From: Candidatus Poseidoniales archaeon
Lineage (GTDB): Archaea; Thermoplasmatota; Poseidoniia; Poseidoniales; Thalassarchaeaceae
Assembly (NCBI GenBank): GCA_028821815.1
Contig: JAPKEY010000001.1
Span: 1-32,984, forward strand
Direction: 5' to 3'
Length of the DNA stretch: 32,984 nucleotides
Of the stretch, positions 9,070 through 13,519 are shown piece after piece. The stretch's first letter is position 1. Every line of letters starts with the position of its first letter. Below the pieces are notes generated by a model that searched no databases, had not been told where the DNA came from, and was given only the letters and a program-made list of their open reading frames with translations. The position numbers were made by a program, and so were the translations under genes.

Positions 9070-12000
9070 TCACGCCACCTCCACCAATGTGATGAATTGC
9101 AATTTGTTTGCAGTTGACATCTGGGCCGAGAATTCAGATCTATCTCCTTTGTTTAAGATTTGAATGCGACATTCGTAAAGATTTGTTCTCTTGATCAATT
9201 CATGTTCTTTGTAGAAATGCACGTACACGTAATACGTTCCTTTTGGTGTTTTTTTCTCTGGCCAATATGCATTCTCGACGGGTACTCGTGTGTTGCCTTT
9301 TTGATTCATTTCAACATCGAGTATTCCGCCATCTTGTGATTTTCGGTTGCGAGGATGGATGATTTCACCACTCGGAGAAACGACGAGCAAATTGAAATCG
9401 TTCTTGTTGTCCCACATCAAGGATACTTGGAGATCTCCGGAATTTGCTTCTGCTTGTTGGAGGCGCTCTTCGAAGTCTTCCTTGAGCCATTCGTCGTCAC
9501 CCAGTGGTTGGAGACCACCTCGTTTGTATGCCTCGTTGAGAGCTGTATGCAATCGAACCTGTTTATCCATCTCAATTTCAGAACTATTCGCAGTATTTTG
9601 CATGACCTTACGGCGAGCGATTCGAAGTTGCTGGAGTGTTTTTAATTGACGATCGTCGGTGTCTTCGAATACAATAGATGCGAGTGTTGTCAAATCTTCT
9701 GCTTCATTAATCATGGAACGATATTTCTCAAACAGTTCTTGATATTCTATTTGCTCTTGTTTCTTTATCCCGGCCTCGATTAATTTACGTCGTTTGAGAA
9801 GGGCTTTCTCAATATATTTCACAACGTCGCTTGATATGTGTGAATAGCGAATTGCTGCCAATTCATCAAGATCTCTTGACGCTTCAATTTCAGCCACGAT
9901 TTTGTTATACTGCTCCTCTTGTTCTGCAATGTATTGCTTTCGTTTGACCTCTTCAAGTTCAGATTCTCGTTTCTCCATCAATCTCTTCAGCATCACCGTA
10001 TGAACGGTTGAAACCTTGTCATTAATTGTGGGTAATTCTTCAACCGTTTGAGCGGACACCACGTCTGCTCTTTGTAGGCGATAGAGTTCAGATTCAGATT
10101 CCAGCCGTTTGTTCATTGTTTCTGCATCTGGAACTTCAATCGATGCGATGAGTTTGAGTTTGTCTCCAAAACTAGTCTTACCTGAATGCTGAAAATAATC
10201 TGCACCAACTCGGCTGCGTAAGGTGTAGATGGTTGGATCTGATTTTCGCAATCTTTGGTGGCGTTTTCGGTGCCAAACAAACACGTTGTAAATACCAGGT
10301 GTGGGTGTGGTGCTCTGAGGCCAAACAATATTCTCTAAGGCGGATTTCATTTCGGGTTGAGAATTCATTTCGAGGTCGAGATGGCCGCCACAAGATGATT
10401 TGCGCTTGCCCCTATGGATTATTTCTCCGTTGGAGGTGCGTACAATCAAATCCAAATCATTCATGTTGTCCCACAATAAACTGAACCGAAGATGGCCGTC
10501 GCCTGCGTCCAGTGTCTTGATGCGGGTTCTGAATGCGGCTTCTGGTTCAAAATCAAATTCATCGGGTATTGGCGGTTTCTTAGATTTCTTTTCCGCTTTT
10601 TCCACGTATGTGGTAATCATTTCATCTTCAACAAGAATTTCTCTAACTTCTTCTTTGATTTCGATTAAGCGTGCTTCCTGTTCCTCGTTGATTTCTTCAA
10701 TCTCGATTTTGTCAATCTCGGCAGAAGATTTCGCAGTTTCAAGACGACCCCGTAGGAGTTGATACTGCTTGGCTTGCGCTTCTTCGACTCTTTGTCTTTC
10801 AATTTCTTCAAGATAATCTAACCGGGTAAGACGTAACTCTTCCAATTCTTGTTGCTGAGTTTCTGTGATGTTGATAAAGTCTACAGCAAGGAGTTCCTCG
10901 GTTTCTTCAATTCTGGGAATTGAATCCAAATATCGTGTATATTGTTCGGTAAATTTTCGTTGGCGGGCCAGTTCCACCAATTCCCCTCGTCTTGTTATTT
11001 TGATTTCTGTTAGCAATTCAAATTGTTCATCCGTCACACCCTGAATCCTGATGGCGTCCAGTTCAAGCACATATTCACAATCAAGAATCTTAGAATTTAG
11101 TTCATCACATACCAAGTTCTCCCTGGTGCGGGCGGAGAGTTGCTTCAATTCTTCTTGTTGGGTTGGGTTCACACCTGTAATGCGAATCCTATCAAGAGCT
11201 GATGATGATTTTGCTGATTCTATTCCCAATCGTATCTCTTCAGCGCGGGCGTCTTCCCTCTCACTCTGATCTTTCGCATCTAACGCAAGTATGCGCTTGT
11301 TCCGCCGTTCGTCTAATTCGGCAAGTAAATCGGCCGGTAAATCTTCGAATTCCATGTTATGCAATTCTTCTTGATCTTCGCAATCATGAATCAAATCTGA
11401 AAAATGGCGATAGAGTTCTGCTTCGAATTGAAGACGCTCTTTTTCACTCAATCGTGAAAGATAAAATTCGTAATGGGCTTTGAGGCGCGTTGAGCCTTCT
11501 TCATTCAATCCTGAGAAATCTAACGATTCGAGATAGTTGACTGTTTGTGCAGAGCGGATCTCCCGATACAATTCTTCTTCGCGTCTTAACTGTTCAAGTT
11601 GGGATGATAGTTCATCAGTTTCAGCATCAATGAGGGCTTTAGTTGCTTTTTCTTGGCTTTCATGTAACCCCAATTCCCTTTTTCGGATTTCTTGAATGGC
11701 GTCTTCAAATGTAAGTTGATACATTCGTTCATATAATTCCAGTAAAGCCGCCTGACGTAATTCCAATTCAACTAGTGTTGCGCCCTCAAGTGGGGTTTCA
11801 ACAAGGTCTTGGTTGACTTCGATATTGTATTCCTCACTCAACCCTTGGATTAATTCGATGATACCTTTGCATTCATCCCTTTTTTCAGTGGTACGATCAA
11901 GAATTGCGTGTCTTTCGATATTGGTCTCTTGTAAATCGGTGATTTCCTGTTTCATTGGCCCGCGTTTATCGGTTTGATGTTGGATTTGACGGGATGGGAA

Positions 12001-12222
12001 TGGGGCCATTTCTGGAGAATATTCAACTCGGGTACCGACTAGTGATTGTGACAATGATGCTCGCGACGGTGGAAGGATGTCTTCGACTTCGATATCCTCC
12101 ATTTTTAGTGCACCCAGTAGCGATTCGGGTTTCCTTCTTCCTTGACTCAAATTGGAGGCTGCTTGCCAAACCATAACCAAAACGATGGAGGTGACTATTG
12201 CATATCCGATCATAGTATTCAT
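9070..12222 (-). CDS. Giant N-terminally TM-anchored coiled-coil protein with two copies of an unassigned ~120-aa beta-rich domain
   Basis: 1050 aa. A single N-terminal TM (IGYAIVTSIVLVMVWQAA) is followed by RRK, so positive-inside predicts the bulk is cytoplasmic. Long E/K/R/Q-rich helical regions carry at least eight copies of a ~40-50-aa motif. The domain copies are at aa ~574-697 (nt 10132-10503) and aa ~928-1050 (nt 9073-9441). Confidence 0.9.
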   Translation of the reverse strand: MNTMIGYAIVTSIVLVMVWQAASNLSQGRRKPESLLGALKMEDIEVEDILPPSRASLSQSLVGTRVEYSPEMAPFPSRQIQHQTDKRGPMKQEITDLQETNIERHAILDRTTEKRDECKGIIELIQGLSEEYNIEVNQDLVETPLEGATLVELELRQAALLELYERMYQLTFEDAIQEIRKRELGLHESQEKATKALIDAETDELSSQLEQLRREEELYREIRSAQTVNYLESLDFSGLNEEGSTRLKAHYEFYLSRLSEKERLQFEAELYRHFSDLIHDCEDQEELHNMEFEDLPADLLAELDERRNKRILALDAKDQSEREDARAEEIRLGIESAKSSSALDRIRITGVNPTQQEELKQLSARTRENLVCDELNSKILDCEYVLELDAIRIQGVTDEQFELLTEIKITRRGELVELARQRKFTEQYTRYLDSIPRIEETEELLAVDFINITETQQQELEELRLTRLDYLEEIERQRVEEAQAKQYQLLRGRLETAKSSAEIDKIEIEEINEEQEARLIEIKEEVREILVEDEMITTYVEKAEKKSKKPPIPDEFDFEPEAAFRTRIKTLDAGDGHLRFSLLWDNMNDLDLIVRTSNGEIIHRGKRKSSCGGHLDLEMNSQPEMKSALENIVWPQSTTPTPGIYNVFVWHRKRHQRLRKSDPTIYTLRSRVGADYFQHSGKTSFGDKLKLIASIEVPDAETMNKRLESESELYRLQRADVVSAQTVEELPTINDKVSTVHTVMLKRLMEKRESELEEVKRKQYIAEQEEQYNKIVAEIEASRDLDELAAIRYSHISSDVVKYIEKALLKRRKLIEAGIKKQEQIEYQELFEKYRSMINEAEDLTTLASIVFEDTDDRQLKTLQQLRIARRKVMQNTANSSEIEMDKQVRLHTALNEAYKRGGLQPLGDDEWLKEDFEERLQQAEANSGDLQVSLMWDNKNDFNLLVVSPSGEIIHPRNRKSQDGGILDVEMNQKGNTRVPVENAYWPEKKTPKGTYYVYVHFYKEHELIKRTNLYECRIQILNKGDRSEFSAQMSTANKLQFITLVEVA

Positions 12223-12226
12223 CGAA

Positions 12227-12664
12227 TCACCCCTCTGGTTGTTCCTCTTCTTCGGCTCCTGATGAAATCGGTATTGATTGAATATGGATGGGGCGCCCTT
12301 GTTTGTTGTAGCGAGCGATTAATGAGGAAAGAAGTGCGTCATGGGAAGTTTCAGAAATTCCTAATTTTCTACGCTCATCCCAAAGAAGGATCTGTTCGGT
12401 GCGTGTTAGGATTCCGTCGTCAAGGTATACTTCGATGAGGCGGCGATATGTGTCGCGATCTGAAATTGCGTAAACGAGTTGAGTGTTATCGATTGATAGG
12501 GCCCGAAGTTGGATTTGGTTACCGAGTATAATCGCTTCATTGTGGGTGATTTTGCGATTGTCATATCCAACCTGTACTTCGTTTGCAATCGTTTGGAGGA
12601 ATTCAATTGTTTTACCGCGATTAATGCGCCGTTGAAATTTGCGAGATTTTCTAGAAAGGCGCAT
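12227..12664 (-). CDS. Small basic/helical protein, possibly TerB/DjlA-N-like
   Basis: 145 aa. Basic N-terminus (RLSRKSRKFQRRINRGK). Two helix-hairpin motifs, NRKITHNEAIILGNQIQLRALSI and DDGILTRTEQILLWDERRKLGIS, resemble the D-G-x-h-x-x-x-E ... L-G-h-S signature of TerB-like domains. Acidic tail EEEEQPEG. There are 12 nt after the upstream stop and 4 nt before the next ATG. The homology call is by eye only. Confidence 0.75.
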   Translation of the reverse strand: MRLSRKSRKFQRRINRGKTIEFLQTIANEVQVGYDNRKITHNEAIILGNQIQLRALSIDNTQLVYAISDRDTYRRLIEVYLDDGILTRTEQILLWDERRKLGISETSHDALLSSLIARYNKQGRPIHIQSIPISSGAEEEEQPEG

Positions 12665-12676
12665 CTAATTCCCCCC

Positions 12677-13519
12677 CTACTCAACTGTGAATACACACAC
12701 CAAACGTGGCGGTTCTTCATTTGTGATTTCGCCCCGATACTCTTTGGGGCCGTTGCCGTCATCTACCAGAACCCTGTAAGGCGTTAGGTCTTCTTTGGCG
12801 TGGTGCTCAAAATGTTCTATTATGACCTTGTATTCCCCTTTTGGAGCAACTCCTGCAGCCCAGAAAATGTTCTCAACGGGTTGTTCGCTTGTGGGGGATT
12901 CATTCATGTCGATATCTAGTTGCCCGCCGCATGATGACAATTTATTATCAAATGATATTCGTTCGCCGGATGGGCAAACCACACTGAGATCAAGATCGTT
13001 TTTATTGTCCCAAATGAGGCTGACTTGGACTTGCCCAGATTTGGCTCCTTCTCTTGCGAGCCGGTCATGGAAATCTGAAAGGTCGGGATTCGACACTTCC
13101 TCCCCCGTTTCGACGTTGAGTTTGTCTGAATCGGGTTCTTTCCGAGGATTTGTATCCCATTCGGCGCCAATTTCAGCAAGAAGCGATTCGGAAGTATCGA
13201 GCAAATCTTCAGGGTTTGGCAAGTCCTCACCTTCATCGATTTCAGCTTCGATTGGGATTTCTGTGTTCTCAGTTTCAGGTGCTTCATCGGGTTGGACGGT
13301 TGCAGAGGGGGTGATGACTGGTGGTTTTGACAATCGGGCCATGTCTTCTTCCAAGGCAAATTGGTTGGGTCGGGGTTCAGAAACTTCGATCGGGGTAGCC
13401 CTAACGTTGCCCAGCCGAGTTGTGTGAGCCGGGTTCTCTTCGCCGGTGAGAATTCTGGAAATGCCGAATACGAACATGGCGAACAGGATAAAAAAAAGAA
13501 CATATGCTGCCCAAGGCAT
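12677..13519 (-). CDS. N-terminally TM-anchored protein with an acidic linker and one copy of the unassigned ~120-aa domain
   Basis: 280 aa. TM helix AAYVLFFILFAMFVFGI, then an acidic low-complexity linker (PDEAPETENTEIPIEAEIDEGEDLPNPEDLLD). The C-terminal domain (aa 161-280, nt 12680-13039) is clearly homologous to the two domains in the 1050-aa protein. Confidence 0.85.
   Translation of the reverse strand: MPWAAYVLFFILFAMFVFGISRILTGEENPAHTTRLGNVRATPIEVSEPRPNQFALEEDMARLSKPPVITPSATVQPDEAPETENTEIPIEAEIDEGEDLPNPEDLLDTSESLLAEIGAEWDTNPRKEPDSDKLNVETGEEVSNPDLSDFHDRLAREGAKSGQVQVSLIWDNKNDLDLSVVCPSGERISFDNKLSSCGGQLDIDMNESPTSEQPVENIFWAAGVAPKGEYKVIIEHFEHHAKEDLTPYRVLVDDGNGPKEYRGEITNEEPPRLVCVFTVE

What the first reader, a model, noticed from the sequence alone, without database searches (positions are those of the whole stretch)
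9070..12222. 1050-aa membrane-tethered coiled-coil giant built from at least eight copies of a ~40-50-aa helical motif
Between the N-terminal TM helix and the domain-X copies, the protein repeats a unit with the consensus h-E-[ST]-A-x-[ST]-x-x-E-L-D-x-I-x-h-x-G-h-x-x-x-Q-x-x-x-L-x-x-L-x-x-x-R-x-x-x-L. Instances by eye: RSAQTVNYLESLDFSGLNEEGSTRLKAHYEFYLSRL (aa ~223), ESAKSSSALDRIRITGVNPTQQEELKQLSARTRENLV (~334), CEYVLELDAIRIQGVTDEQFELLTEIKITRRGELV (~382), IEETEELLAVDFINITETQQQELEELRLTRLDYL (~437), LETAKSSAEIDKIEIEEINEEQEARLIEIKEEVREILV (~494), VVSAQTVEELPTINDKVSTVHTVMLKRLMEKRESEL (~721), IEASRDLDELAAIRYSHISSDVVKYIEKALLKRRKLI (~779), INEAEDLTTLASIVFEDTDDRQLKTLQQLRIARRKVM (~838). The G-h-T/N-x-x-Q-x-E-x-L ... 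R-x-x-L half of each unit loosely echoes the two D-G-I-L-T-x-x-E-x-x-L ... L-G-I-S hairpins of the adjacent 145-aa protein. The layout is modular: five repeats, domain X, three repeats, domain X. That looks like a ruler or scaffold that presents the beta domains at fixed spacings.
Basis: seen in the sequence. Interest (0 to 1): 0.6.

Follow-up and report, generated by a model that had tools for sequence, protein, structure and literature searches.

The report
Membrane-tethered helical-repeat scaffold protein
A 1050-residue protein of uncultured marine Group II archaea is built from nine copies of a previously undescribed ~55-residue helical repeat and two beta-sandwich domains; it is probably an intracellular, membrane-tethered scaffold added to the gene block that accompanies the swimming-filament (archaellum) genes, but its job is untested.

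Summary
ORF 9070-12222 (minus) is a conserved gene. Its helical repeats are statistically real: profile self-alignment scores 136 and 54, against at most 20 for column shuffles.

There are nine units of about 55 aa, not eight.

AlphaFold2 (pLDDT 87-89) gives each unit as one 29-43-residue helix plus a conserved 17-residue connector. That is an array of helical hairpins, not one continuous coiled coil.

No Pfam, NCBIfam or PDB relative was found. A profile search of 1.84 billion proteins returned only this family, which I found only in Poseidoniales (5 of 26 genera).

Unit number is fixed within clades: 6+3 in the window's genus and 7+2 in a 30%-identity clade, with total length 1042-1055 aa in both. 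It differs in other genera.

Charge flanks, sequon scarcity and a TM-less homologue point to a cytoplasmic bulk.

The gene is a lineage-specific insertion into a conserved archaellum-linked block. A scaffold or spacer role is plausible but inferred. The claimed echo with the 145-aa neighbour is not supported.

The scan noted the same 6+3 plan before, in another genome (e1-2637840).

The parts
12157..12213 (-). N-terminal transmembrane helix (aa 4-22), the only hydrophobic segment
   Evidence: Kyte-Doolittle scan gives 1.88 over 19 aa. There are 0 K/R before the helix and 3 K/R (RRK) in the 15 aa after it, which suggests N-out/C-in.
11608..12156 (-). Conserved non-repeat head region (aa 23-205)
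   Evidence: It contains many invariant columns (R65, R104, K114, C118, L153, R156 and others). It has no significant match to the repeat HMM. It was not modelled.
11404..11559 (-). Helical repeat unit 1 (aa 222-273), preceded by the ELYR...SAQT lead-in
   Evidence: HMM 53 bits; leave-one-out 16.1 bits. The lead-in recurs before unit 7.
11236..11391 (-).
   Evidence: HMM 43 bits; leave-one-out 8.4 bits, which is marginal. It is covered by the hhalign off-diagonal hit 259-545 vs 207-486.
11083..11223 (-). Helical repeat unit 3 (aa 334-380), the shortest unit
   Evidence: HMM 47.5 bits; leave-one-out 21.5 bits. BLAST against unit 6 gives E 2e-7.
10933..11088 (-). Helical repeat unit 4 (aa 379-430)
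   Evidence: HMM 58.5 bits; leave-one-out 30.7 bits.
10765..10908 (-). Helical repeat unit 5 (aa 439-486)
   Evidence: HMM 35.8 bits; leave-one-out 24.3 bits.
10588..10740 (-). Helical repeat unit 6 (aa 495-545)
   Evidence: HMM 42.3 bits; leave-one-out 30.2 bits.
10126..10509 (-). Domain X copy 1 (aa 572-699), a DUF2135/YfaP-like beta-sandwich
   Evidence: It is 50% identical to copy 2. It is 40% identical to the X-type domains of P0027, a protein that carries a PF09906 match. Domain HMM 198 bits.
9910..10056 (-). Helical repeat unit 7 (aa 723-771), preceded by the second ELYR...SAQT lead-in
   Evidence: HMM 42.9 bits; leave-one-out 14.2 bits.
9736..9888 (-). Helical repeat unit 8 (aa 779-829)
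   Evidence: HMM 43.2 bits, but leave-one-out only 1.1 bits. Support comes from the hhalign hit 772-888 vs 714-829 and from the same AF2 helix-connector pattern.
9559..9711 (-). Helical repeat unit 9 (aa 838-888)
   Evidence: HMM 46.5 bits; leave-one-out 18.4 bits.
9073..9450 (-). Domain X copy 2 (aa 925-1050)
   Evidence: AF2 predicts nine beta strands with block pLDDT mostly around 90 and two low-confidence loops. Foldseek gives only a generic Ig-like sandwich (best hit MmpS5, E 0.028).
12227..12664 (-). 145-aa partner gene; its stop codon lies 4 nt upstream of the giant's ATG
   Evidence: Coordinates. It is conserved next to the giant in all loci at 50% identity or more. It also heads the archaellum-linked operon in lineages that lack the giant.
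12677..13519 (-). 280-aa TM-anchored protein carrying a third domain X
   Evidence: Related proteins of about 253-283 aa flank the archaellum cluster in lineages that lack the giant.

Best explanation
The gene encodes a structural scaffold protein specific to marine Group II archaea (Poseidoniales).

Architecture. One N-terminal transmembrane helix tethers it to the membrane. A conserved head of about 180 aa follows, then two super-modules. Each super-module has an ELYR...SAQT lead-in, an array of helical-hairpin repeats of about 55 aa (six, then three), and a DUF2135/YfaP-like beta-sandwich (domain X).

Repeat unit. Each unit is one amphipathic helix of 29-43 residues (about 4-6.5 nm) plus a conserved 17-residue connector: a turn, a 5-residue helix (xxELD) and an 8-residue loop (xIxIxGVN) with an N-cap. 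The connector's hydrophobic residues tie the end of one long helix to the start of the next. Successive long helices must therefore run antiparallel.

Location and role. The bulk most likely lies in the cytoplasm. The arrays act as rigid, fixed-size supports that hold the two X domains at set positions under the membrane. The protein probably works with the co-translated 145-aa protein and the TM-anchored 280-aa X-domain protein.

Genomic origin. The gene is a lineage-specific insertion into a gene block that accompanies the archaellum operon throughout MGII.

Shown: the architecture, the repeats, their conservation, the distribution and the synteny. Inferred: the topology, the rigidity or spacer role, the partners and the link to the archaellum.
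For: Repeats are real and ancient.
- hhalign off-diagonal scores are 136 and 54, against shuffle maxima of about 20.
- Units within the protein are 22% identical. The same-position units are 38-60% identical to those of the 50%-identity clade, so each position is individually conserved.

Structure.
- AF2 mean pLDDT is 88.7 and 86.5, with the helix/connector pattern repeated nine times.
- The most conserved columns lie in the connector: I1, A4, E9, L10, I13, I15, G17, V19, N20, Q23, L27, L38.
- The long helices are 23-37% hydrophobic, so they pack and are not single alpha helices.

Size constraint.
- The 24 intact copies are 1042-1055 aa at 30-96% identity.
- There are nine units in both the 6+3 and the 7+2 clades. 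The 1154-aa outlier is an assembly gap.

Cytoplasmic bulk.
- K/R residues lie after the TM helix and not before it in g1, g17 and g26.
- The g8 homologue has no TM helix or signal peptide.
- The giant has 3 N-X-S/T sequons where 4.2 are expected. The neighbouring surface protein has 32 where 16 are expected, and cytoplasmic ArlH has 0.

Partnership with X280.
- In g26 a single protein (P0038) has an X280-like N-terminus, an X domain, four units and a second X domain, which looks like a fusion.

Archaellum link.
- The block RHH318-X280-p145-giant-surface protein-p287-ArlB is intact wherever the contig reaches, in 20 loci of 50-96% identity; it is cut only at contig ends.
- In lineages without the giant, the same partners flank the archaellum operon.
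- All five giant-positive genera carry archaellin.
Against: - pTM is only 0.51-0.57.
- The oligomeric state is unknown.
- The 30%-identity clade (g23) has acidic, not basic, residues after the TM helix, so the topology argument is weaker there.
- In g23, g8, g17 and g26 the gene is not next to archaellum genes.
- 12 of the 17 archaellated genera sampled lack the giant. It is therefore at most an accessory.
- Adjacency in g1 could simply reflect where the gene was inserted.
- Unit number differs between genera, which argues against one universal spacing.
Confidence: 0.5

Rival explanations
1. It is an extracellular (pseudo-periplasmic) stalk. The N-terminal helix acts as a signal anchor with the C-terminus outside. 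The helical arrays span the space between the membrane and the surface layer and present the X domains to the neighbouring 1567-aa surface protein or to the archaellum filament base, much as TolA does.
For: The adjacent gene encodes a giant surface protein. The g23 clade has acidic residues after the TM helix, so its topology is ambiguous. DUF2135/YfaP-type proteins in bacteria belong to envelope-associated operons; this rests on my own knowledge and was not tested here.
Against: Three clades have K/R after the TM helix and not before it. The g8 homologue has no TM helix or signal peptide. Sequon density is 0.29 per 100 aa, against 2.0-2.5 per 100 aa in the extracellular proteins of the same block. 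Charged residues make up 34% of the protein and there are conserved cysteines.
Confidence: 0.15
2. It is a true intermolecular coiled coil. The long helices pair between two or more chains to form an extended rod tens of nanometres long, and the connectors act as hinges.
For: The long helices are amphipathic throughout. The weak best Foldseek matches are elongated helical rods: PRC1, Exo70, spectrin and MxiC. Total length is tightly conserved.
Against: AF2 breaks the helices every ~55 residues with well-conserved, confidently modelled connectors. The connector is too short (17 aa) to return along a 6-nm helix, which forces antiparallel hairpins within one chain. All Foldseek hits are non-significant, with E > 0.1. 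No multimer model could be run.
Confidence: 0.15
3. It is a nucleic-acid-binding array. The xIxIxGVNxxQ connectors would be degenerate helix-hairpin-helix motifs, as in the tandem (HhH)2 repeats of topoisomerase V.
For: The connector has a superficial pattern similarity to h-x-x-h-x-G-h-G-x-x-x-A.
Against: The second glycine is replaced by N or S. There is no Pfam HhH hit at E <= 1. The protein is strongly acidic, with pI 4.95 and net charge -59. It is also membrane-anchored.
Confidence: 0.03
4. There is no real repeat. The apparent periodicity would be a by-product of E/K/R/L-rich composition in a helical protein.
For: E+D+K+R make up 34% of the protein. Units are only about 22% identical to one another.
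Against: Column-shuffled alignments never exceed a score of 20, against 136 and 54 observed. Residue shuffles reach 15.7 bits at most, against 36-58 bits for real units. The register is specific and conserved in every orthologue.
Confidence: 0.01

Closest known systems
EzrA (Bacillus/Staphylococcus cytokinesis regulator): an N-terminal TM anchor followed by a cytoplasmic array of spectrin-like helical repeats
   Same: One N-terminal TM helix with the bulk probably in the cytoplasm. The body is built of tandem antiparallel-helix repeats and acts as a membrane-tethered scaffold. This is a resemblance in architecture and mode of working, drawn from my own knowledge.
   Different: There is no sequence or significant structural similarity. 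The unit here is about 55 aa with one long helix and a structured connector, not a triple-helix bundle of about 100 aa. This protein also carries two beta-sandwich domains and occurs in archaea.
ArlX (Thermoproteota) and ArlC/D/E (Euryarchaeota): cytoplasmic scaffold and switch components of the archaellum motor
   Same: ArlX also has an N-terminal TM helix and a cytoplasmic helical body and is encoded with the archaellum genes. The window's genome shows no ArlC or ArlD/E Pfam match, so that role is unfilled here.
   Different: No homology has been shown. The giant is four times longer and carries X domains. It is present in only 5 of the 17 archaellated Poseidoniales genera sampled, and it lies next to the archaellum genes only in the window's genus.
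Spectrin repeats and PRC1 / exocyst-type helical rods
   Same: These are the best, though non-significant, Foldseek matches. They are tandem antiparallel helices that build a defined-length support.
   Different: E values are 0.12 to about 4 and TM-scores 0.1-0.27. The period is 55 aa rather than 106. There is no Pfam spectrin hit.
YfaP / DUF2135 (PF09906) proteins, for domain X only
   Same: Domain X is 40-43% identical to both domains of P0027. That protein carries a PF09906 match and is named YfaP (DUF2135) by JGI.
   Different: The giant itself gives no PF09906 hit at E <= 1. The Pfam model covers only 48 positions. The function of DUF2135 is unknown.
TolA (an N-terminal TM anchor, a long helical spacer and a C-terminal globular domain)
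   Same: The domain order is the same, with a helical spacer presenting a globular domain at a distance from the membrane (my own knowledge).
   Different: TolA's bulk is periplasmic and its helix is a continuous Ala/Lys/Glu-rich segment. Here the bulk is probably cytoplasmic and the helices are hairpin repeats.

Membership tests
Canonical (oligomeric) coiled coil | Long uninterrupted heptad-repeat helices | tested here: not met
   The AF2 DSSP assignment shows helices of 29-43 residues, each broken every ~55 residues by a 17-residue turn, short helix and loop.
Canonical (oligomeric) coiled coil | Helices pair between two or more chains | not testable with these tools
   Only monomer prediction was available, with no coordinates and no multimer run.
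Spectrin repeat (PF00435) | A three-helix bundle unit of about 106 aa that matches the family profile | tested here: not met
   The period is 45-59 aa. There is no Pfam hit at E <= 1. Foldseek matches to spectrin have E values of 2.4-3.9.
ER/K single alpha helix | A helix dominated by E/K/R with very few hydrophobic residues | tested here: not met
   The long helices contain 23-37% hydrophobic residues. By eye, an ER/K-like segment does occur in the g26 relative P0038.
Helix-hairpin-helix (HhH) DNA-binding motif | A G-h-G hairpin, a profile match and a basic surface | tested here: not met
   Column 20 is N or S, not G. There is no Pfam hit. pI is 4.95 and net charge -59.
DUF2135 / YfaP (PF09906), domain X | A match to PF09906 above the 22-bit gathering score | tested here: inconclusive
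   The giant gives no hit at E <= 1. However, its X domains are 40-43% identical to the domains of P0027, which scores 28.1 bits against PF09906.
   There is no Pfam hit at E <= 1. No TerD structure appears among the top 50 Foldseek PDB hits, where the best is MmpS5 at E 0.028.
Shared motif with the 145-aa neighbour (TerB/SHOCT-like hairpins) | Significant profile-profile similarity between the repeat unit and the 145-aa family | tested here: not met
   hhalign gives probability 0.8% and E 0.066 over 14 columns, and the match is not at the DGILT motif.
ArlX-type archaellum scaffold | An N-terminal TM helix with a cytoplasmic helical body, encoded with archaellum genes | tested here: inconclusive
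   The TM helix is present and the charge flanks fit C-in. The gene is adjacent to the archaellum genes in g1 only.
ArlX-type archaellum scaffold | Forms rings and binds ArlH/ArlI | not testable with these tools
   This needs biochemistry or in situ imaging.

The most novel reading that the evidence does not exclude
In this lineage the giant, the TM-anchored 280-aa X-domain protein and the 145-aa protein together form the missing cytoplasmic scaffold of the MGII archaellum. The assembly would be a functional stand-in for ArlX/ArlCDE, or the tether to a polar-cap-like sheet. The fixed-size helical arrays would set the distance between the membrane and a layer of X domains. The composition of the euryarchaeal polar cap and of its ~35-nm gap is still unknown (PMC5517150), and the window's genome shows no ArlC or ArlD/E match.
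Probability: 0.15. Interest if true: 0.75.

Novelty: new variant of a known kind. Interest (0 to 1): 0.45.

Why it matters
Marine Group II archaea are the most abundant planktonic archaea in surface oceans and remain uncultured. Their archaellum cluster carries several unannotated genes. Published comparisons drew these genes but did not describe them (PMC6336850).

This protein defines a new helical repeat with no entry in Pfam or NCBIfam and no relative in the PDB. An exhaustive search found it almost only in this one family.

Its strict conservation of size and unit number, its two DUF2135-like domains, and its insertion into the archaellum-linked block make it a concrete candidate for a lineage-specific cytoplasmic support of the motility or adhesion apparatus.

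If it proves to be only a clade-specific scaffold of unknown use, the gain is a new repeat family and a corrected annotation.

Tried and rejected
- Self-BLAST of the whole protein returned only the identity hit. Windowed BLAST with the query region masked was needed to see the repeats.
- Pfam and NCBIfam gave nothing for the giant, the 145-aa protein or the 280-aa protein.
- Profile searches against PDB sequences gave 0 hits at E <= 1.
- Foldseek against the PDB gave no significant hit for the helical array (best E 0.12) or for the model containing domain X (best E 0.028).
- The unit profile did not match the 145-aa family in any meaningful way.
- The single-alpha-helix reading was rejected because the helices are too hydrophobic.
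- The HhH/DNA-binding reading was rejected on charge and motif.
- The 1154-aa 'length variant' (L030) is a run of N in the assembly.
- A literature search for DUF2135 returned no papers.
- The cluster look-up gave no name or source organism for the one out-of-family hit, P0040.
- Coiled-coil predictors (MARCOIL, DeepCoil), HHrepID and DeepTMHMM were not available. I substituted hhalign self-comparison, HMM iteration, a Kyte-Doolittle scan and flank-charge counts.
- Model coordinates are not exposed, so no end-to-end length or helix packing could be measured.
Full report
**What is there.**
The window holds a 1050-codon ORF on the minus strand at 9070-12222. It lies 4 nt downstream of a 145-aa gene. 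That gene follows a 280-aa gene by 12 nt.

The product has a single hydrophobic helix at residues 4-22. It is acidic, with pI 4.95 and net charge -59. It has no Pfam or NCBIfam match at E <= 1 and E <= 0.1 respectively.

It is a real gene. Twenty-three proteins of 51-100% identity cover the whole length, and more distant relatives exist. Twenty-six GTDB species representatives, all titled Poseidoniales, Thalassarchaeaceae or MGII, carry it as an open frame.

**Are the repeats real?**
Yes. Windowed BLAST of the protein against itself finds the two domain-X copies (564-697 vs 917-1049, E 4e-19, 50% identity). It also finds many unit-to-unit matches, the best being 490-535 vs 330-375 at E 2e-7.

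A profile of 20 orthologues aligned against itself gives off-diagonal hits shifted by one or two periods:
- 259-545 vs 207-486, E 3e-17.
- 320-532 vs 208-417, E 5e-16.
- 705-874 vs 262-415, E 2e-8.
- 772-888 vs 714-829, E 1e-5.

On the two helical regions the best off-diagonal scores are 136 and 54. Twenty column shuffles of each region never exceeded 19.6 and 17.1.

An iterated HMM finds nine units in the window protein:
- Before X1 (572-699): 222-273, 278-329, 334-380, 379-430, 439-486, 495-545.
- Between X1 and X2 (925-1050): 723-771, 779-829, 838-888.

HMMs were also built without the unit position under test and without the window protein.
- They still find seven units at 14-31 bits.
- Unit 2 scores 8.4 bits and unit 8 scores 1.1 bits.
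- The null from 500 residue shuffles tops out at 15.7 and then 8.4 bits.

The unit at 278-329 was missed, so the plan is six, X, three, X.

**An old, fixed array.**
Units within the protein are 10-38% identical, with a mean of 22%. Each unit is 38-60% identical to the unit at the same position in the 50%-identity clade. The array therefore predates these clades, and every position is conserved on its own.

Both arrays open with ELYR...SAQT. Their pre-X tails also align (883-939 vs 520-586, E 6e-6). This fits an ancient duplication of a whole 'array plus X' module. An earlier first-reader note on another genome (e1-2637840) reached the same 6+3 super-module reading.

**Structure.**
AlphaFold2 was run on residues 205-560 with 20 orthologues and gave mean pLDDT 88.7 and pTM 0.51. 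On residues 700-1050 it gave 86.5 and 0.57.

Each unit has four elements: a long helix of 29-43 residues, a turn of 3-4 residues, a five-residue helix (xxELD), and an eight-residue loop (xIxIxGVN) leading into the next long helix.

The most conserved columns are in this connector and in the first turns of the following helix. The long helices are 23-37% hydrophobic. They are therefore packing helices, not ER/K single helices.

A 17-residue connector cannot return along a 6-nm helix. Consecutive helices must therefore be antiparallel.

Foldseek against the PDB finds nothing significant. The best hit is PRC1 at E 0.12 with TM 0.2-0.27. Exo70, MxiC and spectrin repeats follow, with E values of about 0.4 to 4. 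PDB sequence profiles find nothing.

'Coiled-coil giant' is therefore better replaced by 'array of helical-hairpin repeats of a new type'.

Domain X2 is a nine-strand beta-sandwich. It has only generic Ig-like matches, the best being MmpS5 at E 0.028, and no TerD structure is among the top 50. By sequence it is 40-43% identical to both domains of a protein that matches PF09906 (DUF2135, YfaP).

**Distribution.**
A profile of the six-unit region was searched against 1.84 billion representative proteins. It returned 17 hits:
- full-length relatives of 1001-1086 aa;
- short partial sequences and two truncated variants, P0037 (394 aa) and P0038 (845 aa);
- one unrelated-looking 704-aa protein, P0040.

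Among 401 Poseidoniales genomes the region was found in 30, from 5 of 26 genera: g1 16/21, g8 2/2, g17 2/28, g23 5/5, g26 4/7.

**Repeat number across relatives.**
- In g1 (both the >70% and the ~50% identity clades) the plan is 6+3 and the length is 1046-1055 aa.
- In g23 (30% identity) the plan is 7+2 and the length is 1042-1047 aa. One unit is inserted between units 3 and 4, and one fewer unit lies between the X domains.
- The only outlier, at 1154 aa, is an assembly gap.
- In g8 the protein is 1001-1036 aa with 6+1 units by HMM (6+3 by eye) and has no TM helix.
- In g17 it is 1082-1088 aa with 5+2 units by HMM (6+4 by eye).
- In g26, P0038 (845 aa) reads TM, a ~115-aa E/R/K/Q-rich helix, X, four units, an acidic linker, X. 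Its N-terminus resembles that of the 280-aa neighbour.

Size and count are thus rigid within a clade, and oddly equal between g1 and g23. The plan is not universal.

**Which side of the membrane?**
Four observations point to a cytoplasmic bulk:
- In g1, g17 and g26 there are 3-4 K/R in the 15 residues after the TM helix and none before the conserved start. By the positive-inside rule this predicts N-out/C-in.
- The g8 homologue has neither a TM helix nor a signal peptide, and the upstream DNA encodes an unrelated enzyme.
- The giant has 3 N-X-S/T sequons where 4.2 are expected. The adjacent surface protein has 32 against 16 expected. The ArlF/G-like proteins have 2.3-2.5 per 100 aa, and cytoplasmic ArlH has none.
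- The g23 clade has acidic residues after its TM helix, so the rule is uninformative there.

I rate a cytoplasmic bulk at roughly 70-75%.

**Genomic context.**
Downstream on the same strand lie:
- a 1567-aa multi-Ig surface protein;
- a 287-aa partner;
- archaellin ArlB;
- a 276-aa protein;
- ArlF-like and ArlG-like proteins;
- ArlH.

The order RHH318 - X280 - p145 - giant - surface protein - p287 - ArlB is kept in 20 fetched loci of 50-96% identity, broken only where a contig ends.

In three MGII lineages without the giant, p145-like, surface, p287-like and archaellum genes form the same operon. The X280-like and RHH318-like genes sit divergently next to it. The giant is therefore a lineage-specific insertion between p145 and the surface-protein gene in a block that accompanies the archaellum across MGII.

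Earlier follow-ups in this scan, and Tully 2019 (PMC6336850), had noted that block but not this protein.

In g23, g8, g17 and g26 the gene lies elsewhere. Archaellin occurs in 17 of 26 genera, including all five with the giant. In g1 the same five genomes lack both genes, which is expected from their linkage. The own genome, 93.7% complete, shows no ArlD/E or ArlC Pfam match.

**Interpretation.**
The best-supported reading is a membrane-tethered, probably cytoplasmic structural scaffold. Its two helical-hairpin arrays hold two DUF2135-like sandwiches in fixed positions. It works with the co-translated p145 and the TM-anchored X280; the g26 fusion supports the X280 link.

A role at the archaellum or adhesion apparatus is suggested by synteny in one genus and by the conserved partnership of X-domain proteins with that operon. 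It is not shown.

The strict ruler version (one long rod, universal spacing) is weakened by the hairpin prediction and by the different plans in other genera.

The suggested kinship with the 145-aa protein's hairpins is rejected.

**Limits.**
- All sequences come from metagenome-assembled genomes of uncultured organisms.

Noticed in passing
P0040 (704 aa, JGI metagenome): This is the only hit outside the family among 1.84 billion proteins. It has four matches to the repeat unit (18-27 bits) spaced about 105 aa apart, each with the motif DAISKATTIxEIxQVxVDxVAERF. It also has an IQ-like motif near its N-terminus. Its source organism is unknown.
   Followed up: partly
P0038 (845 aa; g26 genus; loci L035-L038): This is a fusion-like relative. 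It has an X280-like TM N-terminus, a ~115-aa E/R/K/Q-rich helix that looks like an ER/K single alpha helix, an X domain, four repeat units, an acidic linker and a second X domain. It suggests that X280 and the giant act together and that spacers of different kinds hold X away from the membrane.
   Followed up: partly
L039, L040, L041: In MGII lineages without the giant, an X280-like gene (253-283 aa) and an RHH318-like gene are transcribed divergently from the operon p145-like, 1570-aa surface protein, p282, ArlB ... ArlH. The X-domain protein is therefore a conserved companion of the archaellum cluster.
   Followed up: partly
Own genome G000: There is no Pfam match to ArlD/E (PF04659) or ArlC (PF05377) in the 93.7%-complete genome, while control genomes do match. 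The cytoplasmic ring or switch component of this archaellum is unidentified.
   Followed up: partly
Genus g1, genomes G103, G145, G233, G247, G291: The same five genomes (72-84% complete) lack both the giant's repeat region and any archaellin match. Either the whole block is variably present within the genus or it is missing from these assemblies.
   Followed up: no
P0116, P0118: Domain X also occurs fused to a von Willebrand factor A domain (PF00092) in proteins of 360-385 aa.
   Followed up: no
L033 4948-5907 (-) and L034 about 10483-10626: In genus g17 a stretch similar to residues 71-120 of the 145-aa protein (the DGILT hairpin region, 36-38% identity) lies inside a 319-aa protein two genes upstream of the giant.
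   Followed up: no
Giant orthologues of g1 (1046-1055 aa) and g23 (1042-1047 aa): At only 30% identity, and with one unit fewer in the second array and one more in the first, the total unit count (nine) and the total length stay the same to within 1%. I cannot tell whether this is compensation under a size constraint or coincidence.
   Followed up: partly
L006-L012, L021 upstream of the giant's conserved start: Several orthologues have an in-frame upstream ATG that adds a K-rich extension of 9-55 residues overlapping the end of the 145-aa gene. If that ATG is used, it would put positive charge on both sides of the TM helix. The start codon is not settled.
   Followed up: no
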